Counted from the stretch's first letter, positions 17,736-60,341 are shown. The stretch is DNA of 64,000 nucleotides from Clostridia bacterium (GCA_017560085.1 JAFYPA010000075.1:86-64085); one strand, 5' to 3'. Translations and numbers: made by a program. The notes: generated from the letters alone by a model not told the origin.

Positions 17736-18977
17736 ATGACGAATTCAAGCATTTACAGTGACATTAAGGCAAGGACGGGCGGAGATATTTACCTCGGCGT
17801 AGTGGGACCCGTAAGGACAGGAAAGTCGACCTTTATCAAGAAGTTTATGGAAACGGTTGTGCTTCCCAATATCACAAACAGCGACGAGCGTACACGGGCA
17901 AGGGACGAAATGCCTCAGAGTGCGGGCGGTAAAACCGTTATGACCACCGAGCCGAAATTTGTTCCCGATACGGCGGTGGAGATTGTTCTTGACGGCAATG
18001 CGGCACTTCGTGTCAAGATGATTGACTGCGTGGGCTATATTATCCCCGGGAGCCTCGGACATACCGAGGAGGAAAGACCGAGAATGGTTATGACACCGTG
18101 GTCGGATGAGGAAATGCCCTTTGACAAGGCGGCGGAAATCGGTACGGCTAAGGTCATAAACGACCATTCCACAATAGGAATTCTTGTCACGACGGACGGC
18201 ACAATAGGTGAACTCCCCCGTGAGAATTACATTGAAGCGGAGGAGCGTGTGGTACGGGAGCTTCGTGAGATAAACAAGCCCTTTGCGATAATTCTCAACA
18301 GCGCGAATCCCGATTCGGACTCTGCCGTAGACCTTGCGATTTCAATGGAGGAAAAATACAAGGCTCCCGTTGCACTTGTCAACTGCACGGACCTTACGGA
18401 GGAGGACATAAAGAAAATACTCGAGCTTGTTCTTCTTGAGTTTCCCATAACCGAGCTCGGCATTACAATTCCGTCCTGGATAGATACACTTCCTATAGAC
18501 CACAGAATAAAGAAAAACCTTTACGACACAGTAAACAGAACCGCCCTTGAAATAACCAAGGTAGGGCAGGCAAGAGAAGCCTTCGGCAATATTTCCGACG
18601 GAGATTTTGAAATAAGCATCCGTCCCGATGCAATAGACCTTTCCGGCGGAAGAGTCCACCTTTGCGCCGATGTCCCCGACGAGCTGTTTTACAGAATCCT
18701 CGGCGAGGAAACGGGATTTGAAATAGACGGTGAGGAGGCTCTTATGGTAAAGCTCCGCGAGCTTTCGGAGGTGAAAAAGGAGTACGACAAGCTGGAAAAG
18801 GCCATCACGGAGGTACGCGAAAACGGCTACGGAATTGTCGCTCCGTCCCTTGAGGATATGACGCTTGAGCAGCCTGAAATTGTCAAGCAGGGCGGAAGCT
18901 ACGGAGTAAGGCTTAAGGCTTCGGCACCGTCTATACATATGAGCTGTAGCAAACAGAAGTGTTCGTTTGTGGCGTAA
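17736..18977 (+). CDS. spoIVA: spoIVA 5' segment: codons 1-402 are authentic, followed by 11 element-encoded codons and a stop
   Basis: IYSDIKARTGGDIYLGVVGPVRTGKSTFIKKFME (Walker A) and the rest of the protein read as SpoIVA up to ...SAPSIHM. It then continues SCSKQKCSFVA*. Confidence 0.93.
   Translation: MTNSSIYSDIKARTGGDIYLGVVGPVRTGKSTFIKKFMETVVLPNITNSDERTRARDEMPQSAGGKTVMTTEPKFVPDTAVEIVLDGNAALRVKMIDCVGYIIPGSLGHTEEERPRMVMTPWSDEEMPFDKAAEIGTAKVINDHSTIGILVTTDGTIGELPRENYIEAEERVVRELREINKPFAIILNSANPDSDSAVDLAISMEEKYKAPVALVNCTDLTEEDIKKILELVLLEFPITELGITIPSWIDTLPIDHRIKKNLYDTVNRTALEITKVGQAREAFGNISDGDFEISIRPDAIDLSGGRVHLCADVPDELFYRILGEETGFEIDGEEALMVKLRELSEVKKEYDKLEKAITEVRENGYGIVAPSLEDMTLEQPEIVKQGGSYGVRLKASAPSIHMSCSKQKCSFVA
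18933..18942 (+). other. attL core ATACATATGA
   Basis: The same 10-mer occurs at 60342-60351. It is flanked on the inside by GCTGTAGCAAACAGAAGTG. Confidence 0.85.
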
Positions 18978-18993
18978 AATGGGCAAAGCTAAA

Positions 18994-19026
18994 GCACAGA
19001 GGTTTTTGGTCTCTGTGCCTTATTTT
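18994..19026 (+). terminator. intrinsic terminator just inside the element's left end
   Basis: Stem GCACAGAG / CTCTGTGC with a 9-nt loop, then CTTATTTTTGTT. It would terminate the truncated spoIVA transcript. Confidence 0.6.
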
Positions 19027-19092
19027 TGTTCTTGAGGTGTCAAATTGCATTTGGCAGGCATTACATTTCAATCCGTTTTTTCGCGTGTAAGC

Positions 19093-20040
19093 TCACCAGG
19101 CCTTGACCGCTCTTTCACACATATCATCAATATATTCCTTCTTCTTCAAAGCCGTGAGCCACTTTTCGGGTATCGAATCCAATCCGTACAGCGCTCCCGC
19201 AAGACCGCCCGCAATCGCTCCGACGGTGTCCGTGTCATCACCTAAATTCACCGCCGAAAGAACACATTCCTCGTAAGACTTACTGTGCAATAAACAATAT
19301 ACAGCCGCTTCAAGAGTAGCAACTACATACCCGCTTGAGGATATATCGCTTCTTTTTGTCAATATAAATGTTTTATTGAAGAGCTTACTGTATTTATCCG
19401 ACTCAGGATATGACTTATAATATTCTTTTGCTTTGTTTAATCCGTTAAGAATGCTTTCCCTGACAGGATTGTCCATAAGCTCCCACAAAACAAAAGCATA
19501 AATTCCGCAGGCGATTTTCGATCTTTCGTGTGCGTGGGTAAGTGCGGAAACGGAATGGATTATTTCTATCTTTTCTTCCGTGCTCAAATTTTTTCTTGTG
19601 TACAAATATAATGCAACCGGATGTATTCTCATCAGAGAGCCGTTACCGTTTGATTGCTCATTGTCAAGACCGCACAGATTGACCGGCTTTTTATTTACAA
19701 AGTAATTATCAATAGCGTAACTGCAGGTATTACCGACATCAAACATTTCTCCCGTCGGAGTGAATTCATCCTTGTAATACCATTTACCGAAGTTAATCAT
19801 TATGTCATCGTAATTAACCATTCCGAGAGTAAGGCTTTCCAAAGTACCCAACGACATACTCGTATCATCGGACCAACAGCCTTCGGGGTAGGGGTATGTA
19901 CCGAAGCCCGTCATATCCGTTACGGGATTCTCATCCAATTCATCTCTGTCACAGAATTCCACGGGTACACCGAGAGCATCGGCTACGGCGTGACCGAATA
20001 TAACTGCTTTTACTGTGTTGTTGAAATCTTTCATAGGCAC
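19093..20040 (-). CDS. ADP-ribosylglycohydrolase family protein
   Basis: 315 aa: GHAVADALGVPVEF, WSDDTSM, GNGSLMRIHPV, GDDTDTVGAIAGGLAGALYG. Confidence 0.88.
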   Translation of the reverse strand: MPMKDFNNTVKAVIFGHAVADALGVPVEFCDRDELDENPVTDMTGFGTYPYPEGCWSDDTSMSLGTLESLTLGMVNYDDIMINFGKWYYKDEFTPTGEMFDVGNTCSYAIDNYFVNKKPVNLCGLDNEQSNGNGSLMRIHPVALYLYTRKNLSTEEKIEIIHSVSALTHAHERSKIACGIYAFVLWELMDNPVRESILNGLNKAKEYYKSYPESDKYSKLFNKTFILTKRSDISSSGYVVATLEAAVYCLLHSKSYEECVLSAVNLGDDTDTVGAIAGGLAGALYGLDSIPEKWLTALKKKEYIDDMCERAVKAW

Positions 20041-20089
20041 CTCTCAAAAATTAAAATTGTCGGGATGAATTTTTGCACCGTCAAGTGCT

Positions 20090-20257
20090 TCAATCCTCTT
20101 CATCATCAAAAGCCGTATCGTCTTCTTCGGATTCCGCTTTTTCCGCTTCGGATACCATATTTACAAATGCAAAAAGGTCTGCGGCTCGCTCGAAGCTGTC
20201 CAGCTTTCCGTCTCTGTTAAAATCGAATATACCACCAAAAAAGCCTTTGTCAAACAT
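20090..20257 (-). CDS. 55-aa acidic protein with one canonical EF-hand loop (below the ORF-track cutoff)
   Basis: Hand translation gives MFDKGFFGGIFDFNRDGKLDSFERAADLFAFVNMVSEAEKAESEEDDTAFDDEED. The loop DFNRDGKLDSFE fits DxNxDGxxDxxE. GGAGG RBS with 8-nt spacing. Confidence 0.6.
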   Translation of the reverse strand: MFDKGFFGGIFDFNRDGKLDSFERAADLFAFVNMVSEAEKAESEEDDTAFDDEED

Positions 20258-20351
20258 AATCGGAACCTCCCGGGTGTTTGTTGAAGTGATTGTTTTTTCT
20301 CTTGATGTTACTATTATAACATATAGGGTGTACTATAAGCAGTACAGTGAT

Positions 20352-21248
20352 TTATTCAATACCATCCATCCCCAAAGCATCCTCCCCACGAGTCCTCCTG
20401 TACCTGTACTCCGTAGGCGACATCCCGATATTTCTTGAAAATACCCTGCTGAAATACAACGGATCACGGAATCCCGAGCTTTCCGCCACAAGTGAAATCG
20501 TCAGCGTCGTGCTTGTCAGAAGCTCGCAGGCGTTTCTGATTTTTACATCCTCTATGAATTTCTGCGGTGTCTTGCCCGTGGCTTTCTTGAAGGCTACCGA
20601 GTACATTCCCGGACTCATTCCGCACAGCTTTGCATATTCGGAGATCTTTCTCGGATAGCGGTATTCCCATTCCATCTGAATTATTCCCTTTATTACCTTG
20701 TCCGCATTTGAATATCCCGAAAGAGTGCTTGGAAGCATTGTTTCGTTTCGCAGTGCGATTTCAGAAAAAAGCTTCATAAATATGGCGTTTATATGTATAC
20801 TGCTTTTCGCAAGCCTCTGTGCAAGTATCATCTGACGGAATATGTCCGATATTACCGCCGTGCTTCCGACAGAGTACACTCCGCTTTCGTGGATTCCGCA
20901 CTGTGACAGAAGCTCGGGAATTGCATATCCGTTGAAATGCACCCAGTAATTTATCGGGTTGTCTGTCCTTTTCTTGACGATTTTATGCGGAATGTTCGGA
21001 AAGCACAGAATAAGGTCGCCCTTCTTTGCGGTCGTCTCCTTATCACCGAGCGTTATTTCTATAAGTCCCTCCGTCACAAAAAGTGCGTAATAATCCTCTC
21101 TGCCGTTCTTTCTTTCCGTTATGTGCATATCATAGAAATTGTGAGGAGGTCTGTGGTCGGATATGTCGCAGTAGCTTACGGTTATGTATTCGTCAGGCTC
21201 TTTTTTGTAGGGAAGGTCGCTGCTTCCGTCGTGGTATATTACTTTCAA
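20352..21248 (-). CDS. AraC family transcriptional regulator (cupin + HTH)
   Basis: 298 aa with the C-terminal AraC HTH pair (SEYAKLCGMSPGMYSVAFKK..., GFRDPLYFSRVFSRNIGMSPTEYR). Confidence 0.88.
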   Translation of the reverse strand: MKVIYHDGSSDLPYKKEPDEYITVSYCDISDHRPPHNFYDMHITERKNGREDYYALFVTEGLIEITLGDKETTAKKGDLILCFPNIPHKIVKKRTDNPINYWVHFNGYAIPELLSQCGIHESGVYSVGSTAVISDIFRQMILAQRLAKSSIHINAIFMKLFSEIALRNETMLPSTLSGYSNADKVIKGIIQMEWEYRYPRKISEYAKLCGMSPGMYSVAFKKATGKTPQKFIEDVKIRNACELLTSTTLTISLVAESSGFRDPLYFSRVFSRNIGMSPTEYRYRRTRGEDALGMDGIE

Positions 21249-21454
21249 TTCCGCATCCTCCGATTGATTTGAATTCCCGGTGCTTTTATTATAATCATTC
21301 GGGAATTTTTTGTCAATGATTTTTGTGAAAATAATCCATATTTATATAAAATAAATCCATTTACTTTGATTTGCGATACCCTTATAATGTAGATATAATG
21401 ATATTTATTTTAAGATTTACAAACTATCTTATTATGAAAGGAACGGTTGTAATT

Positions 21455-24400
21455 ATGAGAAAAATATCCGCATTGGTTATGGCATTGCTTCTTGCCTCAC
21501 AGAGCCTTTTTACGGCATTGGCTCTCACGGAGCAGAACTATGATTTTGCAAAGTACAATCCTCTTGTAGAGGAGAATTTCCCGCTTGCAAGAGAGGCGGC
21601 AGGTGAAGGTATTGTACTTCTTGAAAACAAAAACAACACGTTGCCTCTCGCCGCTGACAGCAAGGTTTCTCTTTTCGGTATCGGACAGATAGACTATGTT
21701 GCGGGCGGTACAGGCTCGGGTATTATCAATACCGCATACAAGGTGAACTTCCTTGACGGTATGCTTGATGCTGAAAAGAACGGAAAGCTCACCGTTGATT
21801 CTGCAACGGCAAAGGTATACTCTGATATATACGACGAATGGACACAGGCTGTTGCCGATGCCGAGGCGGCAGGAACAGCAAAGCCTTCTCTTGATGAGTA
21901 CGCCCTCACGGATGAGGATGTAGCAAAGGCAAGAGCTGAAAGCGACACGGCAGTATATTACATCAGAAGAATCCAGGGTGAAGGAAGCGACAGAAAGGCT
22001 GTGAAGGGCGACTATTACATCAGCGACATCGAGGCTTCAAACCTTGCGAAGATTGATGAGGCAGGCTTTGAGAACTTTATAATTGTAATAAACGCAGGTA
22101 CAGCGGTTGATACCTCCTTCTTCAAGGATTACGAAACAGCCGACTCCCTTATTATGGCGTGGCTTCCCGGCGTTGAGGGCGGTCTTGCACTTGCGGATGT
22201 TATGACGGGCGATGTGAACCCTTCGGGTAAGCTTACCGATACGTTCCTTAAGTCCTACGACTGCTATCCTTCCGCAGAAAGCTTCACCGAGTCACAGTCC
22301 TTTGTAAACTACACCGAGGACATTTACAACGGTTACAGATATTTTGAAACCTTCGACCCGGAATACACAATGGTAAACTATGAGTTCGGCTACGGACTTT
22401 CATATACCGAATTTACACTTTCAGGCGACAGCGCTACCGTTTCCGACGGCAATGTAAATGTTTCCGTAAGCGTTAAGAACACGGGCGAGTGTGCGGGTAA
22501 GGAAGTAATTCAGGTGTACTACGGCGCACCTCAGGGACTTCTCGGAAAGAGCGCAAGGGTTCTTGCGGGATATGCAAAGACAAAGCTTCTTGCTCCCGGT
22601 GAAACACAGAGGATTACAGTTACATTCCCCGTATCCGATATGGCATCCTTCGATGACCTCGGCAAGACGGGAAACAAGTCCGCATATGTTCTTGAAGCGG
22701 GCGACTACAATTTCTACATAGGTAACTCCGTGCGCAATGCGGGTGAAAGAGGCATAAAGGGTACATATACCGTTTCCGAAACCGTTGTAACACAGCAGCT
22801 TACCTCGCTTCTCACACCCAATGCTCTCGATAAGAGACTTGTTGCAAAAGAAGAAGCGGACGGAAGCCTCACAGCGGAATACGAGCGTCTTTCCGTTACA
22901 ACCGATGCCGACGGAAGCTACAAAATCGACCCCAATGCCGCACAGACAATAATTGATGCGGAAAACTACACGGATGGTACAGACGGACTTGAAACTCCCG
23001 TTCTTCCCATGCAGGACAACCTTAAATACGTTAAGGGAATGAAGAACGGCGAATACATAAGCTTTGCCTTCTCCAACGAAAATGCGGCTATGTATACAAT
23101 CGCACTCAACATCTCCAACGGTGGCGAGGCGGTTTCTCCCTCCTTCAATATTTATCTTAACGATACTCTCGTATGCAGTGACATCTCCGTTGCATCAACG
23201 GGAAGCGGTACTGCAGACGGTACATTCGTGTTCAGCGAAACCGAATTCGGACTTCTTGTATTCGAAAAGGGCAAGAGCACCGTAAAGATTGAATCCGCAA
23301 ACGACGGACTTCTTGACATTGACAGCATTATCTTAAGACCTGTTACAGACCTTCCCGTAATCAAGGCGGACAAAAAGACGGTTATCGAAGCGGAAAAATA
23401 CGATGTAGCCTATAACAATCCCGATGACGGCAACAATATGCTTATTAGTACCGAATCCGCTCTTGGCGAAACACTTGTTGCAAAGATGCAGGGTAAGGGC
23501 AACTACATAGAATACCGTTTCCTCGTTGAAGAGGCGGGAACATATGCGTTCACCTTCAACTATGCCGCAACGGGAAATATGACAAATCCCTATTCCATAA
23601 GCATAAACGGAACAGTTCAGGATGTAAGCTATACACTTGCAAAAACATCTCCCGAGGGTACAACAAGTGCCGACGGTATGGTGTTCTATAACACCTGTGC
23701 AGACGCAGAGCCTATAGACATTGTTCTTCCCGCGGGCTTTGTAACAATGAGAATTACCACAATCGGCGGTTCTCCCAACCTTAACAGATACACCTTTGAA
23801 AAGAAGTTCGAGCTTCCTTCAGGCTTTACACTGGTTTCGGGCACGGAAAACACCGAAATTGAGGCGGAAAATGCTTCCGCTATGGCTAAGGGTGTGTGGG
23901 CTGAAGTAAAGACCGTTGACGGCGTGGAAACAAAGGTACTCAACGCACTTACGGGCGAGGGCAAGTTCCTTGAATACAAGCTCTGGTTTGAAAAGGCGGG
24001 AGAGTACGGCGTTGTATTCAATGTTGCTTCTACCGCTAACGGCACAAATCCCTTCAGATTCCTTGCAAACGGCAACGAAATAGCTGTTTCCGACTACACA
24101 TTTACAAAAACAACTCCCGAGGGAGCAACCACATCCGACACGGATGCATACTATCACACATACCTCGATATGCCCGCGATAGCTATGGAATTCCCCGCAG
24201 GTAAGGTTATCTTCAGACTTGAAACAACAGATACAAAGCAGAAGCCCAATTTCAACAAGTTCACAATAAAGCCCGTTGCCGAATACGAGGCGGAAGCTCC
24301 CGCAGGCTACAGACAGGTGCTTGACACCGAGCCTCTTGTAATTCAGGCTGAAAGCTATGATGCAAACTTCAATGTACAGACACAGAAAATGAATCAGCTT

Positions 24401-33045: not shown

Positions 33046-33046
33046 T

Positions 33047-47777: not shown

Positions 47778-47792
47778 TTTTTAAGGTGCATG

Positions 47793-50289: not shown

Positions 50290-50478
50290 TTCGGTATCCT
50301 TCTTTAATGAATTCTTTTTAGATATTAGCATATTTGTCGTAAAATGTCAATATCGTTTTTGCTTTATGTGAAAAGTATACACCGAAATTTTCGGGTTGAT
50401 TTTTGGGGGTGAAAAATCTCCCTCCGTTGGTTGGCGGAGAGAGATAATTTTTTGTCGGACTACGGAAACAAAGCTAAT

Positions 50479-51495: not shown

Positions 51496-51499
51496 ATTT

Positions 51500-51943
51500 T
51501 TATTTTACCTCAACCGTGCCGTCAGCCTTAACGGTAATTTCCATACCGTCCTTAACGTATGCGAGGAACTCGTCACCGAGCGAGTCAATAACGGGCATAT
51601 TAACGCCGTCAACCCATACATCAGCGATAATCGCACCTGCCGCCGCAAGGGAGTCGATGTGTCCCGAGAAAAGCATACAAGCGGGATTCTTACCCATAGA
51701 GCAGGCACAGTAAAGAACAAGTCCGCCCGTGGTTGAGCCTATTGTCTGCGGAAGGCAAAGAGCCTTGCCTATAAGGGGCTTTCCGTGAAGCTCGCTGTTG
51801 TTCTGGTCACCGCACTTAACCTGCTTGTCGCCGAACTGAAGTGCCATCTGAAAGGATGCGAGTGTGTTGAAGCCCTGTGTTGTAACAACCGCTTCAGCGG
51901 TTACCTCGCCGGGAGTTATAACTCTGCCCTTGAATGTTTTCAT
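51500..51943 (-). CDS. aconitase X swivel-domain subunit (DUF126)
   Basis: 147 aa, GRVITPGEVTAEAVV...GKALCLPQTIGSTTGGLVL. 1-nt overlap with the DUF521 gene. Confidence 0.75.
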   Translation of the reverse strand: MKTFKGRVITPGEVTAEAVVTTQGFNTLASFQMALQFGDKQVKCGDQNNSELHGKPLIGKALCLPQTIGSTTGGLVLYCACSMGKNPACMLFSGHIDSLAAAGAIIADVWVDGVNMPVIDSLGDEFLAYVKDGMEITVKADGTVEVK

Positions 51944-53217
51944 TATTTTCTACCTCCCGTGATAATTTCGAGTATTTCCGAATCCGTGTAATATCTTGCG
52001 CTTGTATATGTACGAAGCTTGTTGGACGATGTGATAACGGGCATCTTCTTGCAAAGGGGATTGTTCATATACATAAGAGGACAGATATACGAAGTAATAA
52101 CGCCCGCATTTTTAAGTCTTGCGGCATATTCCGTCTTTTCAAATGCTTCGAGCACCTTGGGGGCGGCTGTGAATACGGTAGGAATCACGACCTTCTTGTT
52201 GCCGTTTCTTGTAAGCTCCGCTTCGATGCTTTCTGTCCAGTCCTTTAACTGCTGAAGGGAAAGGTGAGGACATCCCACAAAGCAGAGCTTCGGCTTTGCA
52301 TCGGGATTCTTCCAGATTACGGGATAGTTCTTCTGTACTCTTTCAAGCTCCGCATCGTCGATTATGTATTCCTTCGCGCCCTCTGTGATAAGACCTTCGC
52401 CCATTTCGACAGCTTCGGGTGTGAGGTTTTCGATGTGGTAAAGACCAACAGCACCGTTGGAGGCTGTAGCCGCACCGAAGTCCTTAAGGTAAGCCTTGGC
52501 GCTGTCGTTAAGCTCTGTACCAATCCACTTATCGAGACCTACAACGTAAGGAACGTCCTCCATAACCTTCATACCGATAGCCGAGCCGAGAAGCTGAGCC
52601 TCGGGCTTTTTTGTTGTCTGAATCTTAACAACCCAGGTAGCCCTTCTGCCATCGTCCGTAAGAAGTCCGAAGTAAGGAACATATCCTACGATAGAGCCCA
52701 TAATATCAATAATGCCCGAGTTTCTGTTACATCTCGCACCGAGAACGGAGTTAGCATAAACAACCGCACTTGATTCCGCCCACGAGAGGACATCGCCCTT
52801 CTGCGGGATATTGCCCATTTCGTCCATATAGCAGGTGCAGGTGAACGCATCCTTGCTCATAAGACCGAGCTTTTCAAGCTGTTTTTCATAGAAGTCCTGC
52901 TTTGTGTACATAAACTTATTGAACACAAGATTCTGCAGGAAATTCGCAGGGACATTCTTATCAAGAGGTCTCGGGTCAACAGAAAACTGCTGTTCCGAAA
53001 AAACGCCCGCATCAAGAAGCTGCTGCATCAGATCATAAACGGGAGCCATAACCTTAAGTCCGAACGAAGTAACAAGATGGTTATACTTCGAAGTAACAGG
53101 CACAAGCTTCTCAGCCTCAAACGCCTCACCATACATAACGATGGTCTTCATAACTTTAGCAAGTGTCTCACCTTTCTCTCCGTCGAGAATCGCTTGCTGT
53201 TCTTTGGTAAGTATCAT
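51943..53217 (-). CDS. aconitase X catalytic subunit (DUF521)
   Basis: 424 aa, MILTKEQQAILDGEKGETLAKVMKTIVMYGEAF. Conserved Cys residues are present (CTCYMD, GCPHLS). Confidence 0.75.
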   Translation of the reverse strand: MILTKEQQAILDGEKGETLAKVMKTIVMYGEAFEAEKLVPVTSKYNHLVTSFGLKVMAPVYDLMQQLLDAGVFSEQQFSVDPRPLDKNVPANFLQNLVFNKFMYTKQDFYEKQLEKLGLMSKDAFTCTCYMDEMGNIPQKGDVLSWAESSAVVYANSVLGARCNRNSGIIDIMGSIVGYVPYFGLLTDDGRRATWVVKIQTTKKPEAQLLGSAIGMKVMEDVPYVVGLDKWIGTELNDSAKAYLKDFGAATASNGAVGLYHIENLTPEAVEMGEGLITEGAKEYIIDDAELERVQKNYPVIWKNPDAKPKLCFVGCPHLSLQQLKDWTESIEAELTRNGNKKVVIPTVFTAAPKVLEAFEKTEYAARLKNAGVITSYICPLMYMNNPLCKKMPVITSSNKLRTYTSARYYTDSEILEIITGGRK

Positions 53218-53272
53218 AGTATATATATTCTCCTTAATCTTTATATTGGATTTGTAAGGGACAGTGGACAGT

Positions 53273-53401
53273 GGATGTTGGAAGCTTCGCTTCCTTCAAA
53301 TAAATTCAAATGAAGATTGCGGAGAATACGCAGAATTCTTTGCAATCAACCAAGACCGCTTGCGGTCATAATTGTGCATTGTGCATTGTGAATTGTGCAT
53401 T
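53273..53401. repeat. composite intergenic repeat: GGAAGCTTCGCTTCC hairpin, CCAAGACCGCTTGCGGTC hairpin, then GTGCATT x4 (one unit GTGAATT)
   Basis: Read directly. The modules are shared with 1841-1950. Confidence 0.9.
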
Positions 53402-53442
53402 CCAATTTCGCACATCACCAAGCATCACGCACTAAGTACAGC

Positions 53443-55518
53443 TTAAATCTTCATACAAACGTCCCACGCGCCCCAGATAACAGTGCGCAAATTGCCTACC
53501 TTGGAAGCATCGCCGATAATGTGAACCTTTCCGCCCTTCTTTGCAATCGGTGCGGGATTGTAGCCGACGGAGAGTATAACGGAGTCTGTGTCAATTCCGA
53601 ATTCCTTGCCGTCCTTGTCCTTGACCGTGATACCGCCGTCACGAATTTCGCAGAGGGAGGTTTCGAGATGCACCTCTACCTTGTTGGTCTTGAAGAAGTC
53701 ACGGAGATAGCTTGTGTTTGCAAGGCAGATGCCCTTGCCCGTGATAAGGTCGTCCTGCATTTCTATAATAACGGGTGTCTTGCCCTTGCGGTAGAGGTCG
53801 TATGCGATTTCACAGCCCGTAAGACCGCCGCCGATTACGGCAACCTTGTTGCCTACCTCCGCTTTTCCGAGAAGATAGTCTATCGCTTCAACGGCTGTGT
53901 CCGCACCCTTTACGGGAATCTTCTTTGCTACGGCACCCGTTGCGATTACGATTTCGTCTGCATCGAGTGTCTTTATGTCCGTAATTTCGGCACCGAGCTT
54001 TACTTCAATGGGATGCTTTGAAAGCTCTCTTATGTACCAGCTGATGAGTGCCTTGTCCTTTTCCTTGAAGTCGGGTGCTGCCGCCGCTACGAATACACCG
54101 CCGAGTCTTTCGGACTTTTCGTAAAGCGTTACCGTGTGACCTCTCTTGGAAAGGAGAATTGCCGCCTCCATACCGCCGATACCGCCGCCGATTACAGCGA
54201 CCTTCTTCTGCTTCTTTGCTTTCTTTACGCTGTACTTCTTTGACTGCATTGTTTCGGGATTGAGCGCACATCTTGCAAGTCCCATAGTGTCGGTAAGGTC
54301 CTGAGTGTTTGCGTGTCCCTTTGAGGAGGAGAAGTTGAAGCAGCCCGCGTGACAGCAGATACAGGGCTTGATTTCTTCCATTCTGTCCTCAATCATCTTT
54401 GTAATCCATTCGGGGTCGACAAGGAACTGTCTTGCAACTCCGACAGCATCTATAAGTCCGTCTGCAACAGCCCTTGCACCTACCTCCGCATCCATTCTGC
54501 CCGCACATACTACGGGAATATCAACGAATTTCTTTATGTGTGCAACATCGGCAAGGTTGCAGTTTTCAGGCATATAAACAGGGGGATGCGCCCAGTACCA
54601 GGAGTCATATGCACCGTTGTCGGCGTTGAGCATATCGTAGCCCGCATCCTGAAGATACTTTGCCGCTCTTTCGGATTCTGCCATGCTTCTTCCGACCTCG
54701 GTGTATTCCTCACCGGGCATTGCGCCCTCGCAGAAGCCCTTCATCTTGGATTCTACTGAGTAGCGGAGAGATACGGGATAGTCGCTTCCGCATTCCTTTT
54801 TGATTGCCTTTACTACCTCTGCGGCGAAGCGGTATCTGTTTTCAAAGCTTCCGCCGTAGTCGTCTGTACGCTTGTTGAAGAATTCAATTGCGAACTGGTC
54901 AAGAAGGTAGCCCTCATGCACGGCGTGAATCTCCACACCGTCTACGCCTGCGTCACGGCAGAGCTTTGCGGTCTTTGCAAACGCCTCAATAATCTCGTGA
55001 ATCTGATGGGTTGTCATTTCGGGGCAGATAATATCGTGCGCCCAGCGTGAGGGCTGAGGGCTGGGACAAGCAAGCTCGTGGCTTGTGTCGATAATGGGCT
55101 TCACAAGTGCACGGGTGAACTTATTTTTGTGAAGGGGAGCGACAAGCTCTGTGATAGCCCAGCTTCTGCCCATACCTGCGGTGAGCTGAACAAAGAGCTT
55201 TGCGCCCGTCTTATGAATTTCGTCCATAAATTCACGAAGCTCGTCGAACATCTTGGGATTCTGCCAGAGCCACTTGCCGAAGAAGGTATCACGAAGCGGA
55301 GCGATACCGGGAATGATAAGACCTACGTTGTTATTGGCACGCTCAAGAAAGAGCTTTGCGGCTTCCTTGTCGAAGTGGCAGCCGCCGATTTCGAACCAGC
55401 CGAAGAGCGATGTACCGCCCATGGGACACATTACGATTCGGTTCTTGATTTCAACGTTTCCGATTTTCCAGGGGGTAAACAGCGCCTGATATTTTTCGTT
55501 TATGGTGTTCATATCCAT
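53443..55518 (-). CDS. OYE-type NADH:flavin oxidoreductase fused to an FAD/NAD(P)-binding domain (2,4-dienoyl-CoA / enoate reductase architecture)
   Basis: 691 aa. N-terminal TIM barrel (NRIVMCPMG, HAVHEGYLLDQF), Fe-S Cys motif CICCHAGC...C, then VAVIGGGIGGMEAA and VAVIGGGLTGCE. Confidence 0.85.
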   Translation of the reverse strand: MDMNTINEKYQALFTPWKIGNVEIKNRIVMCPMGGTSLFGWFEIGGCHFDKEAAKLFLERANNNVGLIIPGIAPLRDTFFGKWLWQNPKMFDELREFMDEIHKTGAKLFVQLTAGMGRSWAITELVAPLHKNKFTRALVKPIIDTSHELACPSPQPSRWAHDIICPEMTTHQIHEIIEAFAKTAKLCRDAGVDGVEIHAVHEGYLLDQFAIEFFNKRTDDYGGSFENRYRFAAEVVKAIKKECGSDYPVSLRYSVESKMKGFCEGAMPGEEYTEVGRSMAESERAAKYLQDAGYDMLNADNGAYDSWYWAHPPVYMPENCNLADVAHIKKFVDIPVVCAGRMDAEVGARAVADGLIDAVGVARQFLVDPEWITKMIEDRMEEIKPCICCHAGCFNFSSSKGHANTQDLTDTMGLARCALNPETMQSKKYSVKKAKKQKKVAVIGGGIGGMEAAILLSKRGHTVTLYEKSERLGGVFVAAAAPDFKEKDKALISWYIRELSKHPIEVKLGAEITDIKTLDADEIVIATGAVAKKIPVKGADTAVEAIDYLLGKAEVGNKVAVIGGGLTGCEIAYDLYRKGKTPVIIEMQDDLITGKGICLANTSYLRDFFKTNKVEVHLETSLCEIRDGGITVKDKDGKEFGIDTDSVILSVGYNPAPIAKKGGKVHIIGDASKVGNLRTVIWGAWDVCMKI

Positions 55519-55734: not shown

Positions 55735-58359
55735 ATGGACAACACAGTATACTGCGTCTTAAGCCACACCCACTGGGACAGAGAATGGTACCGGCCCTTC
55801 GAGCAGTTCCGAATGAGGCTTTGCGATCTTATAAATAACCTTTTTGCAATATTGGAGCAGTACCCCGATTACATATTTCACCTCGATGCACAGACCGTTG
55901 TCCTTGAGGATTATCTTGAGGTCTATCCCGAAAACGAGGAAAAGCTTAAGGGATATATAAAGTCGGGCAATATCATCGTAGGTCCGTGGTATGTGCAGAA
56001 CGACTTTTATCTTTCAAGCGGTGAGGCTACCGTGAGAAATCTTCTTATCGGAATGAAAACAGCGGAGAAATTCGGCAAGTGCGCTACGGTTGGATATACT
56101 CCCGATCAGTTCGGACTCTGCAGTCAGCTTCCGCAGATTTTCGGGGGCTTTGGTATTAAGTACCACCTTTTCGGCAGAGGATATTCCCTGTTTGAAAAGA
56201 CGGAAAAGGGAGCGGTTGGTGCAAAGAAAAATATAAATTTCATATGGCAATCCCCCGACGGAAGCAGTGTGGTTTCTACGCTTATGCCGTTCTGGTACAA
56301 CAATGCACAGCGTCTTTCTCCCGATATTGACAAAACCCTATGGCGACTCGGCAACATGAAAAAGCTTTTCTCCGAGCGTACTGAATCGCCCTTTCTCATT
56401 CTTATGAACGGCGTTGACCATCTTGAAGCGCAGGACGATTTGCTGCCGATTATTGACGAGCTGAATAAACGCCTGCAGGGTGAAAAAATCCGTCAGTTCG
56501 TTATGGAGGATGCACTTAAGGCTAACGAGCCGTACGCCGCGGAAACGGTAACGGGTGAGCTTCGATACGGCAGAGAAGGTGAAATTCTTTCGGGAACGCT
56601 TTCCACAAGAACGGATATCAAAAAGCTGAACTTCGATGCCCAGAATCTTCTTGAACATAAAGTAGAGCCTCTTTATGCGATGATAAGCCTTATGGGCGCA
56701 GATATATATCCGTCAAATATGATTGACCTTATGTGGAAAAAGCTTATTCCCAACCACGCCCACGACAGCATATGCTGTTGCTCAAATTCCAATGTAATGA
56801 AGCATATGCAGGACAGATACCTCTCAATAAATGAGATAGGCAAGGAGCTTCTGCTTCGTGGCGGTCGCTTTATAAACAATCACATTAAAAGAGATACACA
56901 CGGCGACGGAGTATATTATCTCACCGCCATCAACACAAGTCAGATGCCGTATACCGGCGTTATGGAATGCGAGCTTGACATCAATATAAGTGATGCCGAC
57001 AAGGACTTCAGAATTTTCTCTCCCGACGGCAAAGAGGCAGAGTTCGTTATTCTCAACAAGGAAAAAGCGGTATTCTCAACCTTCAGCCCGCTGAATCTCC
57101 CCGGAAGCGTTGATGTTGTAAACTATAAAATTCAGCTGTTTGTAAAGGATATCCCCGCATTCGGATATGTGAACTATACCGTAAAAACAGGCTTTGACTA
57201 TACCGCAAGGAATTCCGATAAGGTGCTTGAAAACGACTGCATCAGGGTTGACTTTGACGGAGAAACGGTAAATCTTCTTGATAAATCAAACGACAGATAC
57301 TACAGAAATATTTTAAGCTTTGAGGATATAGGCGACAACGGTGATGCATACGTTTTCGAGCCGTTCAAGGATGATAAGCCCGTAAAAGCGGTGCTTGAAA
57401 ATGTTGAAATTCTGTATTGCAATCCTCTTAAGAGTGCGGTACGCCTTTCATACAGAATGGATGTCCCCGAGAGCAAAAGCGAAGAAGCAAGAGCGGGCAA
57501 AACGGTAACAAACAGACTTGAAGCCGTGCTGTCGCTGGGCAAGGACGAAAGAGCTTTGTCGGTTGATATAAAGCTTGAAAACAACAGCACATACCACCTT
57601 ACAAGGGCTGTGATAAACACCGAGGTGGACAACACGGCCACCTATGCTTCCTCCGTGTACGATGTAATAAAACGCGACTCAAGGGATGTTGACCTTGATA
57701 TAAGAACCTGCTACAGCCAGCCCAACAGCGGATTTGTATACAAGAAGTGCGACAGCCACGGCGTTGCGGTATTCACCAAGGGACTTTACGAATACGAAAA
57801 CAGAAGCAACAAGCTTATAGGACTTTCACTTCTGCGCTCAACGGATATGATTCTTGCGGGCGTTATCGATCCCAAGGCGTGGGGCGTAAAGGATAATCTT
57901 ATGACGGGAACATACAATCTGTCCTTCGCAATATTGCCCTTTGACGGCAACGCCGGACAGATTCCCGCAATGGAGCAGAGCATAAACAGTCAGCCGTTAT
58001 ATCATTTCGACAGCACGGACATCTATATGTTCGCAGGCGGAAGACCTGTCGTACAGGACAGTGACGTCGGCGAGCTGTATTTCCCCAAGGACAAATACGA
58101 ATCCCTTGAGCTTGAGCACAGTGCAGGTCTTATTTCCGTGAATGACGGAGTTTGCGTAACAGCTCTCAAAAAGGCGGTAAAGACGGATGATATTATTTTA
58201 AGAATGTATAATCCTTCGGATAGTAGTGTGGATAATGTTGTTTCCTTTGACGGCGGAAGAATTTCAAAGACGAATCTTGCGGAGGCTGAGGAGGCGGAGT
58301 TTGATAATTGTATCGGGAAGAAGGAAATTGAGACTTTGAAAATCACATCTGCCGATTGA
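55735..58359 (+). CDS. GH38 alpha-mannosidase (cytoplasmic type)
   Basis: 874 aa: LSHTHWDREWY, GPWYVQND, HAHDSICCCS. No signal peptide. Confidence 0.88.
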   Translation: MDNTVYCVLSHTHWDREWYRPFEQFRMRLCDLINNLFAILEQYPDYIFHLDAQTVVLEDYLEVYPENEEKLKGYIKSGNIIVGPWYVQNDFYLSSGEATVRNLLIGMKTAEKFGKCATVGYTPDQFGLCSQLPQIFGGFGIKYHLFGRGYSLFEKTEKGAVGAKKNINFIWQSPDGSSVVSTLMPFWYNNAQRLSPDIDKTLWRLGNMKKLFSERTESPFLILMNGVDHLEAQDDLLPIIDELNKRLQGEKIRQFVMEDALKANEPYAAETVTGELRYGREGEILSGTLSTRTDIKKLNFDAQNLLEHKVEPLYAMISLMGADIYPSNMIDLMWKKLIPNHAHDSICCCSNSNVMKHMQDRYLSINEIGKELLLRGGRFINNHIKRDTHGDGVYYLTAINTSQMPYTGVMECELDINISDADKDFRIFSPDGKEAEFVILNKEKAVFSTFSPLNLPGSVDVVNYKIQLFVKDIPAFGYVNYTVKTGFDYTARNSDKVLENDCIRVDFDGETVNLLDKSNDRYYRNILSFEDIGDNGDAYVFEPFKDDKPVKAVLENVEILYCNPLKSAVRLSYRMDVPESKSEEARAGKTVTNRLEAVLSLGKDERALSVDIKLENNSTYHLTRAVINTEVDNTATYASSVYDVIKRDSRDVDLDIRTCYSQPNSGFVYKKCDSHGVAVFTKGLYEYENRSNKLIGLSLLRSTDMILAGVIDPKAWGVKDNLMTGTYNLSFAILPFDGNAGQIPAMEQSINSQPLYHFDSTDIYMFAGGRPVVQDSDVGELYFPKDKYESLELEHSAGLISVNDGVCVTALKKAVKTDDIILRMYNPSDSSVDNVVSFDGGRISKTNLAEAEEAEFDNCIGKKEIETLKITSAD

Positions 58360-58445
58360 AAGGAAATATGCTATGAATAATCCGGAGCTGTGATTTTATT
58401 AAATAATCAAAAAAACAAAAATAAATTTCAAAGGAGAAATCAAAA

Positions 58446-59327
58446 ATGTCAAAAGAACTATCAAAGAAAGCCCTTGAGCTCATAAAGAAAATGCAGCAGG
58501 GCGAGCTTACGGAAAGCGTAATTTACGAACAGATTGCAAAATTCGCAAAGGGCGAAGAAAACAAGAAAACCTTGCGCCGTCTTGCCGAAGAGGAAAAGGC
58601 ACACTATGAAATCTGGAAAAGCTACACGGGCATCGAAATGAAGCCGCAGAAGGCGAAGGTGCTCAAGTATAAGCTCCTCGCAAGAATTTTCGGCTTCACA
58701 TTTGCCCTGAAGCTTATGGAAAACGGCGAGGAAAACGCACAGGACAAGTACGCAACACTCTTTGAAGAGGTTGAAGAAAGTAAGCACATCAAGGAGCAGG
58801 AGGAGGAGCACGAAAAGGCTCTTCTCGAAATGCTCGATGAGGAAAGACTTCAGTACGTTGGCAGTATGGTGCTTGGTATGAACGACGCTCTTGTAGAGCT
58901 TACGGGCTCTCTTGCGGGCTTTACCTTTGCAATGGCAAACACAAGACTTATCGCACTTTCGGGACTTATTATGGGTATTTCCGCAACTTTCTCAATGGCT
59001 TCCAGCGAATTCCTTGCGGCAAAGAGCGAGGGCAGAAAGGATGCCTTCAAGTCCTGCTCGTATACGGGCGTGGCGTACCTTATCACGGTTGCACTTCTGA
59101 TTCTGCCGTATCTCCTGCTTGAAAACTCGCAGTATATGATTGCACTTTTCGCTATGCTTGCGATTGTTATTCTGATTATTGCGGGATTCTCCTACTACAT
59201 ATCCGTTGCCAAGGGTGAAAGGTTCAAGCCCAAATTCCTTGAGATGACGGCAATAAGCGTAGGCGTTGCTGTGCTTTCCTTCTTTGTTGGTATTCTTGCG
59301 AAGAAGTTCCTTGGGGTTGACCTTTAA
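58446..59327 (+). CDS. ferritin-like/rubrerythrin domain fused to a VIT1/CCC1 iron-manganese transporter domain
   Basis: N-terminal ELTESVIYEQIA...EEEKAHYEIW four-helix-bundle motifs. C-terminal GMNDALVELTG...SMASSEFLA and hydrophobic helices. Confidence 0.8.
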   Translation: MSKELSKKALELIKKMQQGELTESVIYEQIAKFAKGEENKKTLRRLAEEEKAHYEIWKSYTGIEMKPQKAKVLKYKLLARIFGFTFALKLMENGEENAQDKYATLFEEVEESKHIKEQEEEHEKALLEMLDEERLQYVGSMVLGMNDALVELTGSLAGFTFAMANTRLIALSGLIMGISATFSMASSEFLAAKSEGRKDAFKSCSYTGVAYLITVALLILPYLLLENSQYMIALFAMLAIVILIIAGFSYYISVAKGERFKPKFLEMTAISVGVAVLSFFVGILAKKFLGVDL

Positions 59328-59377
59328 TAAAATAGCTTCGGAAATAAAAAATATTAAATTGTAACGGAGGAAGCAAT

Positions 59378-60124
59378 ATGCCCGCAAAGCAGCTCGCCCA
59401 AATGATAAAGGAATCAGACAACATAGTTTTCTTCGGCGGAGCGGGAGTTTCGACGGAGAGCGGTGTCAAGGATTACCGCAGTAAGGACGGAATCTACAAC
59501 ACCGAAAAGGATTTCGGAGTACCGCCCGAGAGGATTCTCAGCAGAAGCTTCTTTGCCGAAAATCCCGAGGTCTTTTACGATTTTTACAGAAAATACTTTA
59601 TGTCCGACGTAAAGCCCAATTCCGCACACAAGGCTCTTGCAAAGCTTGAGGAGATGGGAAAGCTCAGGGCTGTAATCACGCAGAACGTTGACAACCTCCA
59701 CTTTGCGGCAGGCAGTAAAAACGTTATCGAGCTTCACGGAAACACAAGGGAGTTCTACTGTAATTCCTGCAAGGCTGATATGCCCTACGCTGACGCCATG
59801 AATGCAATCACAAACGGCGGTGTGCCGAGATGCGTTCACTGTGCGGGAGCGGTAAGACCGAGAGTTGTTATGTACGAGGAAAAGCTCCACGAAGGAGTCC
59901 CCGAGCTTGCAATGGGGTACATCGCAAATGCGGATATGCTGATTGTCGGCGGAGCATCGCTTCTTGTGAATCCCGCGGCATCCTTTATAAGATTCTTCGG
60001 CGGGAAGCATTTCGTTATCATAAACAAGCAGGAAACGCCTTACGATTACAGAGCGGAGCTGATTGTCAGGGAGAATATCGGGGAGCTTCTGGAGAGGACG
60101 ATGGGGGAATACGGAAGGCTTTGA
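59378..60124 (+). CDS. cobB: NAD-dependent protein deacylase (Sir2/CobB family)
   Basis: FFGGAGVSTESGVKDYRS, TQNVDNLH, zinc ribbon CNSC...CVHC, and GASLLVNPAA. Confidence 0.9.
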   Translation: MPAKQLAQMIKESDNIVFFGGAGVSTESGVKDYRSKDGIYNTEKDFGVPPERILSRSFFAENPEVFYDFYRKYFMSDVKPNSAHKALAKLEEMGKLRAVITQNVDNLHFAAGSKNVIELHGNTREFYCNSCKADMPYADAMNAITNGGVPRCVHCAGAVRPRVVMYEEKLHEGVPELAMGYIANADMLIVGGASLLVNPAASFIRFFGGKHFVIINKQETPYDYRAELIVRENIGELLERTMGEYGRL

Positions 60125-60160
60125 GAAGTTGCTCCGATGTTTGAAGATTGAACGAAAAAT

Positions 60161-60192
60161 GCACAGAGGGTAGGTACTCTGTGCATCGTTTT
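60161..60192 (+). terminator. intrinsic terminator after cobB
   Basis: Stem GCACAGAG / CTCTGTGC with an 8-nt loop, then ATCGTTTTTT. The 8-bp stem is the same as in the terminator at 18994. Confidence 0.6.
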
Positions 60193-60262
60193 TTATGTGT
60201 TGGGGGTATCCGAACAGCACCGGGATTTTTGCAGCAAATCCCAAATAAATTCCAAATCCCTC

Positions 60263-60291
60263 TTGCAATTTCCGAAAAAACGAGTTAGAAT
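60263..60291 (+). promoter_or_regulatory. outward-facing sigmaA-like promoter at the element's right end
   Basis: TTGCAA, a 17-nt spacer, then TAGAAT, about 50 nt before the attR core and pointing into the spoIVA 3' segment and GH32 gene. Confidence 0.4.
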
Positions 60292-60341
60292 ATAACCAAG
60301 TAAAAACCCACCTCTCCAAGCACTTCTGTTTGCTGCAAGCC

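What the first reader, a model, noticed from the sequence alone, without database searches (positions are those of the whole stretch)
18943..60341. The intervening element carries metabolic and defence cargo, with no recognisable phage or conjugation genes
**Seen in the sequence.**
- I recognise no capsid, portal, terminase, tail, lysis, relaxase or type IV secretion genes in the 41.4 kb.
- It does encode carbohydrate-active enzymes: a secreted GH3 with CBM repeats and a dockerin, a GH38, and an SGNH hydrolase.
- It encodes redox and radical chemistry: two glycyl radical enzymes, one activase, an AcnX pair with KPR-like and OYE-fusion enzymes, two SDRs, an alcohol dehydrogenase and an FAD oxidoreductase.
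- It encodes three AraC regulators, a transporter, a ferritin-VIT1 fusion, a sirtuin and an ADP-ribosylglycohydrolase.
- It also encodes a GmrSD-like nuclease and an ABC-type ATPase.
- The TGCA heptamer arrays found in the core genome also occur inside the element (53374-53401).
- AT-rich sub-islands at 31.5-35.3 kb, 41.2-43.4 kb and 47.3-47.9 kb suggest a mosaic origin.

**Established knowledge.** The characterised intervening elements are prophages or phage remnants.

**Inference.**
- This would be a non-phage genomic island using the sporulation-excision lifestyle.
- Its niche genes would be lost only from the terminally differentiated mother cell and inherited through the spore.
Basis: partly seen in the sequence, partly recalled or inferred. 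Interest (0 to 1): 0.75.

Follow-up and report, generated by a model that had tools for sequence, protein, structure and literature searches.

The report
Non-phage island splitting spoIVA
A 41.4-kb block of sugar-degrading, redox and defence genes, with a site-specific recombinase but no virus or conjugation genes, interrupts the spore-coat gene spoIVA of a gut or rumen Clostridium. It belongs to a widespread, apparently undescribed family of elements that use this same insertion site, although this kind of element is already known in other sporulation genes.

Summary
The 41,409 bp between the two halves of spoIVA hold about 32 genes. Pfam and PHROGs scans of 30 ORFs found no capsid, portal, terminase, tail, lysis, relaxase or type IV secretion gene. 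The cargo list is correct.

This finding's text leaves out a 571-aa large serine recombinase at 47857-49572. A conserved 53-aa ORF with a sigma-E-like promoter lies just upstream of it. Typical att sites bound the element, with a 10-bp repeat ATACATATGA and dyad centres on CA. Precise excision restores an in-frame 492-aa SpoIVA.

Close relatives with the same upstream synteny have either an intact spoIVA or a different element at the same codon. At least 25 metagenome loci carry related recombinases next to a spoIVA 3' fragment, and their cargo is unrelated to this element's.

A non-phage intervening element (gin, in gerE) was described in 2017. I therefore call this a new member of a known kind. 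What is new is the target gene, a widespread recombinase clade, and the largest and most metabolic cargo seen here. Excision has not been shown experimentally.

The parts
17736..18942 (+). spoIVA 5' part (codons 1-402; the ORF runs on to a junk stop at 18977)
   Evidence: SpoIVA_ATPase, SpoIVA_middle; reconstitution
18917..18965 (.). attL: spoIVA half-site, the shared 10-bp core ATACATATGA (18933-18942, predicted crossover CA at 18936-18937) and the element arm GCTGTAGCAAACAGAAGTG
   Evidence: homologous ends in L008 and L259
18994..19018 (+). Terminator-like hairpin just inside attL, conserved in L008 and L259
19093..20040 (-). ADP-ribosylglycohydrolase
   Evidence: 3.5e-70
20352..21248 (-). 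AraC-family regulator 1
21371..27328 (+). Secreted 1985-aa GH3 with permuted domain order, Fn3/CBM-like repeats and a weak dockerin match
   Evidence: internal repeats (D1, D3)
27383..30525 (-). Glycyl-radical-enzyme activase (27383-28276) and glycyl radical enzyme 1 (28273-30525)
   Evidence: activase above the TIGR02494 cut-off; the enzyme is below all equivalog cut-offs
30692..31477 (+). AraC-family regulator 2
31500..35187 (+). Sub-island of hypothetical genes: a 235-aa protein (32120-32827), a 54-aa phrog_34144 ORF (32881-33045), a 107-aa ORF, a 271-aa SWIM-like/HAS-barrel-like protein (33421-34236) and an ABC-type AAA_15/21 ATPase (34300-35187)
35364..38128 (-). Glycyl radical enzyme 2 (35364-37397) and an SDR (37394-38128)
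38342..41199 (+). AraC regulator 3 (38342-39106), FAD-dependent oxidoreductase (39223-40533) and SGNH hydrolase (40534-41199)
41282..43393 (+). GmrSD-type type IV restriction nuclease; a low-GC outlier
   Evidence: (PADLOC Orf5 4e-118, HEC-06)
43574..47283 (+). TipAS-like ORF and SDR, MatE transporter (44825-46147), Zn alcohol dehydrogenase (46159-47283)
47551..47577 (+). Sigma-E-like promoter GCATACT-N14-CATATAAA
   Evidence: bipartite motif conserved in 6 of 6 close family members
47616..47777 (+). Conserved 53-aa ORF, the candidate recombination directionality factor
   Evidence: 80% and 62% identity in L085 and L089; weaker copies in about 15 more loci
47792..47815 (+). Conserved terminator-like hairpin between the 53-aa ORF and the recombinase
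47857..49572 (+). Large serine recombinase (571 aa; catalytic YARVST motif intact)
49648..50331 (-). ERI1/KapD-like DEDDh 3'-5' exonuclease
50479..55518 (-). KPR-like reductase (50479-51495), AcnX small (51500-51943) and large (51943-53217) subunits, OYE + pyridine-nucleotide-disulfide reductase fusion (53443-55518). One host-type heptamer array lies at 53371-53401
55735..60124 (+). GH38 alpha-mannosidase (55735-58359), rubrerythrin-like + VIT1 protein (58446-59327), CobB-type sirtuin (59378-60124)
   Evidence: (NF001752 291 bits, above the 221 cut-off)
60263..60291 (+). Sigma-70-like promoter TTGCAA-17-TAGAAT facing attR, conserved in relatives; role unknown
60318..60366 (.). attR: element arm CACTTCTGTTTGCTGCAAGC, core ATACATATGA (60342-60351, crossover CA at 60345-60346) and the spoIVA half-site
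60342..60623 (+). spoIVA 3' part (codons about 400-492, SpoIVA_C domain)

Best explanation
This is a gene-intervening element of the skin/gin kind. It is a 41.4-kb island integrated by a large serine recombinase into a conserved, partly palindromic site in spoIVA (codons APSIHM|IRADI).

Proposed mechanism:
1. In vegetative cells and in the forespore the element stays integrated, so its cargo is inherited through the spore.
2. In the mother cell, sigma-E drives the 53-aa ORF upstream of the recombinase. I propose this protein is the directionality factor.
3. With that factor, the recombinase joins attL and attR at the CA dinucleotide, releases a 41.4-kb circle and rebuilds an in-frame 492-aa spoIVA. 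The rebuilt gene can then make the basement layer of the spore coat.

The element has no transfer machinery of its own. It is one member of a family that shares only the 53-aa ORF, the recombinase and the att sites, and that gathers unrelated cargo on both sides of that module.

Shown here: the split gene, the recombinase, the att architecture, in-frame restoration, the absence of phage and conjugation genes, empty and differently occupied sites in relatives, and the family.

Inferred: sporulation-specific timing, the role of the 53-aa protein, and mother-cell restriction.
For: Structure of the element:
- Split gene and 10-bp repeat.
- The dyad centres of reconstructed attP (20 of 25 symmetric pairs) and attB (13 of 25) both fall on the same CA.
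- The reconstituted gene is 1479 bp, has no stop and aligns gap-free with intact homologs.
- The recombinase carries Resolvase + Recombinase domains and the invariant catalytic motif.

Regulation:
- The 53-aa ORF is conserved next to the recombinase in relatives.
- A bipartite xCATAxT-N14-CATAwwww motif lies 65 nt upstream of it in 6 of 6 close members. The strict form occurs only 3 times in 128 kb.
- A similar motif with the same spacing precedes spoIVA itself.
- The layout matches C. difficile skin, where the recombinase is constitutive and a small sigma-E-dependent factor confers mother-cell specificity (PMC5025042).

Comparative evidence:
- Empty site with conserved upstream synteny in L256 and L257 (83% SpoIVA identity; flank proteins 68-97% identical).
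- A different element at the same codon in L259 and L008.
- At least 25 loci have the SpoIVA C-terminal fragment right after a related recombinase.
- Both junctions are present in three assemblies.

Gene content: no phage or conjugation families.
Against: - There is no experimental or read-level evidence of excision. No attB or attP junction was recovered.
- The sigma-E assignment rests on consensus matching in an uncultured organism.
- The 53-aa protein resembles no known directionality factor, and the hairpin after it could equally be an attenuator.
- Composition does not mark the element as foreign. Tetranucleotide r = 0.96 against the flanks, and GC is 45.7% against 46.1%.
- Downstream synteny of spoIVA is not conserved in relatives, so only one flank supports the empty-site argument.
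- How an element with no transfer genes spreads is unexplained.
Confidence: 0.75

Rival explanations
1. A decayed prophage. The element began as a temperate phage that integrated into spoIVA, as skin and SPbeta did in their own target genes. It then lost all virion and lysis genes and picked up host-type cargo.
For: - The recombinase matches the PHROG integrase family at 1e-103.
- A 54-aa ORF matches phrog_34144.
- The 235-aa ORF has structural relatives in gut siphovirus genomes.
- One of 16 surveyed family members has an SPP1-type portal gene within 10 kb of its recombinase.
- Published skin recombinases are interspersed with phage integrases.
Against: - No structural, packaging or lysis gene remains among 30 ORFs. 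Coding density leaves no room for a hidden module.
- The best full-length phage recombinase is only 31% identical.
- No IMG/VR contig with a related recombinase (46% identity or less) carries a spoIVA fragment.
- The closest family members (64-70% identical recombinases) carry surface proteins, restriction-modification, toxin-antitoxin and defence genes, not phage genes.
- Other members carry relaxase or rolling-circle Rep genes instead.
Confidence: 0.15
2. A mobilisable or otherwise transferable island for which spoIVA is simply a conserved landing site, as tRNA genes are for many islands. Excision would mainly serve horizontal transfer in vegetative cells. Spore development would tolerate the insertion only because occasional excision occurs.
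For: - An identical 572-aa recombinase occurs in two different hosts, with SpoIVA C-terminal fragments about 85% identical and different downstream genes.
- Two of 16 surveyed relatives carry MobA/VirD2 relaxases.
- The attB lies in an almost invariant peptide motif.
Against: - The window element has no relaxase, T4SS or replication gene.
- A conserved sigma-E/K-type -10 element precedes the 53-aa ORF across the family.
- All characterised elements in mother-cell sporulation genes excise developmentally (PMC5595907, PMC5025042).
- The two readings are not mutually exclusive.
Confidence: 0.07
3. A dead insertion. spoIVA is a pseudogene in a lineage that no longer sporulates, and the 41 kb is a fixed part of the chromosome.
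For: Composition is indistinguishable from the flanks, and one host-type heptamer array lies inside the element.
Against: - Both spoIVA halves are free of stops and frameshifts and remain 79-84% identical to intact relatives.
- The recombinase, the 53-aa ORF and both att arms are intact.
- The same split is maintained in many species.
Confidence: 0.03

Closest known systems
gin element in gerE of Bacillus cereus ATCC 10987 (Abe et al. 2017, PMC5595907)
   Same: - A non-phage intervening element of tens of kb (28.6 kb) inside a mother-cell sporulation gene.
- It is excised by a large serine recombinase (GirC) together with a small accessory factor (GirX).
- Its att sites have a short shared core (9 bp) and imperfect inverted repeats.
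- It has no conjugation genes of its own.
   Different: - The target gene is different: gerE is a late sigma-K-stage regulator, whereas spoIVA is an early sigma-E-stage coat morphogenetic ATPase.
- gin has three recombinase genes, against one here.
- The host is Bacilli, not Clostridia.
- The cargo here is mainly carbohydrate and redox metabolism plus a GmrSD nuclease.
- Homology between the recombinases was not tested.
skin(Cd) in sigK of Clostridioides difficile (Serrano et al. 2016, PMC5025042)
   Same: - It uses a large serine recombinase plus a small acidic factor (CD1234, 72 aa) driven by a sigma-E promoter.
- That factor restricts excision to the mother cell, while the recombinase itself is expressed constitutively.
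- The layout here (sigma-E-like promoter, 53-aa ORF, terminator-like hairpin, recombinase) fits the same logic.
   Different: - The published element is 14.6 kb, prophage-like and lies in sigK.
- The 53-aa ORF here has no detectable similarity to any described directionality factor.
- Nothing here has been tested experimentally.
skin(Bs) in sigK and SPbeta in spsM of Bacillus subtilis (PMC4191935)
   Same: Developmentally regulated excision from a mother-cell gene by a serine recombinase. The spore keeps the element.
   Different: Those elements are a defective and an active prophage respectively. This one has no phage module.
Staphylococcal cassette chromosome (SCC) elements
   Same: - Cargo cassettes moved by large serine recombinases (the recombinase here scores 1e-33 against CcrC, far below the cut-off).
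- No transfer genes of their own.
- Mosaic, accreting structure.
   Different: SCC integrates at the 3' end of rlmH without inactivating it. It needs no directionality factor and has no link to development.

Membership tests
Sporulation gene-intervening element (skin / SPbeta / vfbin / gin kind) | Interrupts the coding sequence of a mother-cell-expressed sporulation gene | tested here: met
   spoIVA is split after codon 402. That spoIVA is sigma-E-dependent and mother-cell-specific is established knowledge from B. subtilis (PMC517825 lists it among sigma-E genes). It was not tested in this organism.
Sporulation gene-intervening element (skin / SPbeta / vfbin / gin kind) | Encodes a large serine recombinase | tested here: met
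   Protein of 571 aa with Resolvase (1.9e-24) and Recombinase (7.9e-22) domains. The catalytic Ser motif is invariant in an 18-sequence alignment.
Sporulation gene-intervening element (skin / SPbeta / vfbin / gin kind) | attL and attR have a short shared core and inverted-repeat arms, and precise recombination restores the reading frame | tested here: met
   The core is 10 bp. The attP dyad shows 20 of 25 symmetric pairs and the attB dyad 13 of 25, both centred on CA. The restored gene is 1479 bp and encodes 492 aa, aligning without gaps to intact homologs.
Sporulation gene-intervening element (skin / SPbeta / vfbin / gin kind) | A recombination directionality factor encoded in the element | tested here: inconclusive
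   The conserved 53-aa ORF next to the recombinase is a positional candidate. It matches no Pfam or PHROG family, and no interaction test was possible.
Sporulation gene-intervening element (skin / SPbeta / vfbin / gin kind) | Excision occurs during sporulation and only in the mother cell | not testable with these tools
   The only evidence is a conserved sigma-E-like promoter motif. No junction reads or cultures are available.
Prophage or prophage remnant | Virion, packaging or lysis genes (capsid, portal, terminase, tail, holin/endolysin) | tested here: not met
   Pfam and PHROGs on 30 ORFs found none. There is no DNA match to 50,697 phage records. Only an integrase-type recombinase and two phage-associated genes of unknown function are present.
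Integrative conjugative or mobilisable element | Relaxase, coupling protein or T4SS genes | tested here: not met
   No relaxase, VirB4, VirD4 or TraG-type family appears in Pfam scans of the 30 main ORFs. There is no match to 72,556 plasmid records. An oriT cannot be assessed.
gin element proper (Abe 2017) | Inserted in gerE, with the girA/B/C and girX gene set | tested here: not met
   The target here is spoIVA and there is a single recombinase. The resemblance is one of kind, not of membership.

The most novel reading that the evidence does not exclude
The 53-aa-ORF + recombinase + att module defines a widespread, previously unrecognised platform in gut and rumen Clostridia. It sits in spoIVA, accretes arbitrary cargo on both sides (from about 9.5 kb up to the 41.4 kb of metabolic genes here) and moves between hosts without transfer genes of its own. 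Its cargo would be 'germline-only' DNA, carried by the spore and programmatically eliminated from the mother cell at the sigma-E stage. That would make spoIVA, and so the start of coat assembly, dependent on a mobile element in a sizeable fraction of these bacteria.
Probability: 0.45. Interest if true: 0.75.

Novelty: new member of a known kind. Interest (0 to 1): 0.58.

Why it matters
- SpoIVA is described as the only morphogenetic coat protein universally conserved in all spore formers. I found no paper reporting it as an interrupted gene in five full-text searches (the fifth point is the reading of the hits).
- The split is not rare. Seven of the 120 closest SpoIVA clusters are N-terminal fragments, and at least 25 metagenome loci show a recombinase next to the 3' fragment.
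- Annotation pipelines name the 5' piece 'stage IV sporulation protein A' and can miss the split. That could distort sporulation-capacity calls in gut MAGs.
- The family offers a natural series of serine recombinases with a defined 50-bp site and a candidate 53-aa directionality factor.
- It shows that ordinary catabolic operons, not only phage or defence genes, can ride on a mother-cell-excised element.

Tried and rejected
- **Assembly chimera: rejected.** attL is present in the ENA 65.8-kb contig and in a Logan contig. attR is present in two ENA scaffolds (65.8 and 88 kb) and in a Logan contig.
- **Cargo as syntenic core genome near spoIVA: rejected.** None of the cargo lies within 10 kb of spoIVA in 80 species representatives or in the 79-83% relatives.
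- **Tandem-accretion scar.** The recombinase lies 10.8 kb from attR, so I looked for a relic att arm downstream of it. Only the two terminal arms match.
- **Cargo shared with other family members.** tblastn of all window proteins against about 170 related loci found none.
- **Compositional foreignness.** Tetranucleotide and GC profiles do not separate the element from the flanks, so they neither help nor hurt.
- **SIR2 and the ADP-ribosylglycohydrolase as a defence pair: rejected.** SIR2 scores above the CobB-type deacylase cut-off and has no meaningful PADLOC hit. The hydrolase has no PADLOC hit at all.
- **The ABC-type ATPase as a named defence system: left unassigned.** It gave only generic P-loop matches to PtuA and AriA.
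- **The attP junction in IMG/VR** gave no hit.
- **Locating the portal and relaxase genes among the surveyed relatives.** I scanned 20 of their ORFs, chosen by size plus all of the L174 element, and did not find them.
- **Fold search of the 235-aa hypothetical against PDB** found nothing significant.

Full report
**1. What is in the sequence**

spoIVA is split. The ORF at 17736-18977 encodes SpoIVA residues 1-402 followed by eleven junk codons. The ORF at 60330-60623 carries residues about 400-492.

The junctions share a 10-bp direct repeat, ATACATATGA, at 18933-18942 and 60342-60351. Just inside them lie imperfect inverted arms: GCTGTAGCAAACAGAAGTG on the left and CACTTCTGTTTGCTGCAAGC on the right. 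These ends form the longest inverted repeat in the region (41 nt, 76%). An arm pattern derived from relatives matches only these two places within the element.

I joined the halves at the repeat to reconstruct attB and attP. The best dyad centre of both falls on the same CA dinucleotide, ATA-CA-TATGA. attP shows 20 of 25 symmetric pairs and attB 13 of 25. This is the usual architecture of large-serine-recombinase sites, and CA is a non-palindromic crossover.

The joined gene is 1479 bp with no stop. It encodes 492 aa and aligns without a gap across the junction (APSIHM|IRADI) to intact homologs.

**2. Gene content**

Greedy ORF calling leaves no non-coding gap larger than about 570 bp.

NCBIfam and PADLOC refine several of these:
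- The activase passes the glycyl-radical-activase cut-off.
- Both glycyl radical enzymes, the AcnX pair and the OYE fusion fall below every equivalog cut-off, so their substrates are unknown.
- The sirtuin passes a CobB-type deacylase cut-off and is therefore a housekeeping type, not a defence SIR2.
- GmrSD matches PADLOC Orf5/HEC-06 models over its full length (4e-118).
- The ATPase gives only generic P-loop matches.

PHROGs on 30 ORFs, including all hypotheticals and the small ORFs, returned no head, packaging, connector, tail or lysis family. The exception is generic esterase-domain hits from the 221-aa SGNH protein. Megablast of the whole element against 50,697 phage and 72,556 plasmid records found nothing.

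Two genes have a phage flavour but unknown function:
- A 54-aa ORF matches phrog_34144 at 3e-17.
- The 235-aa hypothetical was modelled at pLDDT 79. It has no PDB match but resembles uncharacterised gut siphovirus proteins (E 1.5e-11). A 57%-identical homolog of it also sits next to spoIIID in ordinary chromosomal contexts.

**3. The recombination module**

The finding's text does not list it, but a 571-aa large serine recombinase lies at 47857-49572 (PHROG integrase 1e-103). It is in the interior of the element, 10.8 kb from attR.

Upstream lies a 53-aa ORF (47616-47777). It is 80% and 62% identical in two related elements and detectable in about 15 more.

Sixty-five nucleotides before its start codon is GCATACT-N14-CATATAAA. 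The same bipartite motif, xCATAxT-N14-CATAwwww, is present at the same place in all six close family members. More distant members keep a CATAT-type -10 element just before the ribosome-binding site. A strict form of the motif occurs only three times in both strands of the window. A look-alike with the same spacing precedes spoIVA itself. This matches the sigma-E consensus known from Bacillus and C. difficile. That consensus comes from my own knowledge, and the assignment here is an inference.

A conserved hairpin plus T-run (47792-47815) separates the small ORF from the recombinase.

The layout parallels C. difficile skin. There the recombinase is constitutive, and a small sigma-E/SpoIIID-dependent factor, CD1234, makes excision mother-cell-specific (PMC5025042).

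**4. Is it an insertion?**

The window matches an ENA metagenome contig. The same junctions occur in a second ENA scaffold (88 kb) and in Logan contigs from another run, so it is not a chimera.

Evidence from relatives:
- Among 80 species representatives with SpoIVA 54-70% identical, 79 have an intact gene. One (L008) is split at the same codon with a homologous element end.
- Closer relatives came from the protein search. P0122 (83% identical) is intact, and its neighbourhood is syntenic with the window's left flank: ATP synthase operon, Crp, ferredoxin, ferritin, rubredoxin, spoIVA. The flank proteins are 68-97% identical, and none of the cargo is nearby.
- P0194 (79% identical) has the same synteny and is split at the same codon, with a homologous attL and terminator hairpin. 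Its cargo is entirely different: a metallo-beta-lactamase-fold protein, HipA, Fic, an SNF2/STAND protein and a KAP NTPase.

One weakness remains: synteny downstream of spoIVA is not conserved.

**5. A family**

More than 100 protein clusters are 56-70% identical to the recombinase and have the same length. In every context I examined, the 53-aa ORF and recombinase lie in an element that splits spoIVA:
- L085-88: giant S-layer-homology (SLH) surface proteins.
- L089, L250 and L251: DNA methylases, a resolvase and PemK or HipA toxins.
- L254: a complete element of about 12 kb, with 8 kb of helicase-nuclease, ATPase and antitoxin genes between the recombinase and attR.
- L252: the contig starts at the recombinase, so the cargo is not visible.

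A metagenome scan with the alignment, followed by tblastn, found at least 25 loci in which recombinases 40-70% identical are followed directly by SpoIVA residues about 399-492. One of them (L174) is a complete 9.5-kb element carrying a sortase, DUF7659 and a broken rolling-circle Rep gene.

I surveyed 144 ORFs from the recombinase-proximal 10 kb of 16 members. They are heterogeneous: DUF932, RecE/YqaJ, SLH proteins, resolvases, type I restriction-modification, glycosyltransferases, a group II intron, two MobA/VirD2 relaxases and one SPP1-type portal.

No cargo is shared with the window element.

One identical recombinase (P0022) occurs in two hosts whose SpoIVA fragments, downstream genes, right-hand cargo and att arm all differ. 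This points to recent transfer and mosaicism.

Related recombinases in IMG/VR reach only 46% identity, and none of those loci holds a spoIVA fragment. Cultured phages reach 31% and plasmids 40% or less, over partial matches.

**6. Composition**

The element is not compositionally distinct. Tetranucleotide r is 0.96 against the flanks, and GC is 45.7% against 46.1%. The exception is the GmrSD gene (GC 0.35-0.39); the hypothetical-gene patch is slightly low.

The host's period-7 arrays occur seven times in 22.6 kb of flank but only once in the 41.4 kb element. That mild signal suggests most of the element does not share the flanks' history.

**7. Comparison with what is known**

Elements that interrupt mother-cell sporulation genes and are excised by serine recombinases are well known: sigK, spsM, spoVFB, spoVR, gerE and yabG (PMC4191935, PMC10747680). 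A non-phage example, gin in gerE, was published in 2017 with the explicit conclusion that such elements need not be viral (PMC5595907). A 2022 survey found that skin elements share nothing but the recombinase.

In the searchable literature I found no report of spoIVA as the interrupted gene. I also found no report of this recombinase clade, or of an intervening element whose cargo is mainly carbohydrate and redox metabolism.

**8. Verdict**

- It is a new member of a known kind.
- Mother-cell excision, the role of the 53-aa protein and the mode of spread remain inferences.

Noticed in passing
window 1836-1882, 3777-3807, 3924-3954, 7703-7742, 11072-11097, 14001-14038, 63260-63290, 53371-53401: Period-7 tandem arrays (units ATTGTGC, AATGCAT, ATAATGC; 4-7 copies) lie in intergenic DNA. 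There are seven in 22.6 kb of flank and one in the 41.4-kb element. A two-unit copy (TTGTGCATCGTGCAT) sits just upstream of spoIVA. Their function is unknown.
   Followed up: partly
window 60263-60291: A sigma-70-like promoter (TTGCAA-17-TAGAAT) points out of the element towards attR and the spoIVA 3' fragment. Its position is conserved in L085, L089, L250 and L254. It might read into the 3' fragment, or across attP after circularisation. Its role is unknown.
   Followed up: partly
window 49648-50331 (-): The RNase_T-family protein next to the recombinase is closest to ERI1-type 3'-5' exoribonucleases (PDB 1w0h, 4e-7). This is the family of B. subtilis KapD, a mother-cell spore-crust RNase reported as specific to Bacillaceae among spore-forming groups (PMC11736430).
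   Followed up: partly
window 32120-32827; loci L262-L265: The 235-aa hypothetical belongs to a family of about 216-aa proteins (81 homologs). One member, 57% identical, lies divergent from spoIIID in four metagenome contigs. The AlphaFold model (pLDDT 79) also resembles uncharacterised gut siphovirus proteins. It may be a sporulation-linked gene that phages and elements also carry.
   Followed up: partly
window 11972-12874 and 14009-17441: Two stretches are absent from the otherwise syntenic relatives L256, L257 and L259, so they are further indels in this lineage outside the element. One is a very AT-rich ORF (GC 0.31, 300 aa, no family). The other is the ETF-beta/ETF-alpha/FAD-oxidase cluster just upstream of spoIVA.
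   Followed up: partly
loci L173, L175, L230: Recombinases about 47% identical lie convergent with the 5' spoIVA fragment rather than co-directional with the 3' fragment. A sister lineage therefore appears to occupy the same gene in the opposite orientation.
   Followed up: no
loci L250 and L251: The same 572-aa recombinase sequence occurs in two different host backgrounds. The cargo between the recombinase and attR differs (HTH only, against HTH + HipA + a 379-aa protein), and so does the element arm of attR. L251's arm resembles that of the L085 lineage. This suggests recent transfer and recombination between family members.
   Followed up: partly
window 21371-27328: The 1985-aa GH3 has a permuted domain order. 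The GH3 C-terminal domain is at residues 81-345 and the N-terminal catalytic domain at 1236-1472. Three CBM-like repeats of about 155 aa lie between them, and the C-terminal end is weakly dockerin-like.
   Followed up: no
window 18994-19018; L008 about 11255-11285; L259 about 11255-11285: A terminator-like hairpin (GCACAGAG...CTCTGTGC plus a T-run) about 50 nt inside attL is conserved in three elements with unrelated adjacent cargo. It would end transcripts of the truncated spoIVA 5' fragment.
   Followed up: partly
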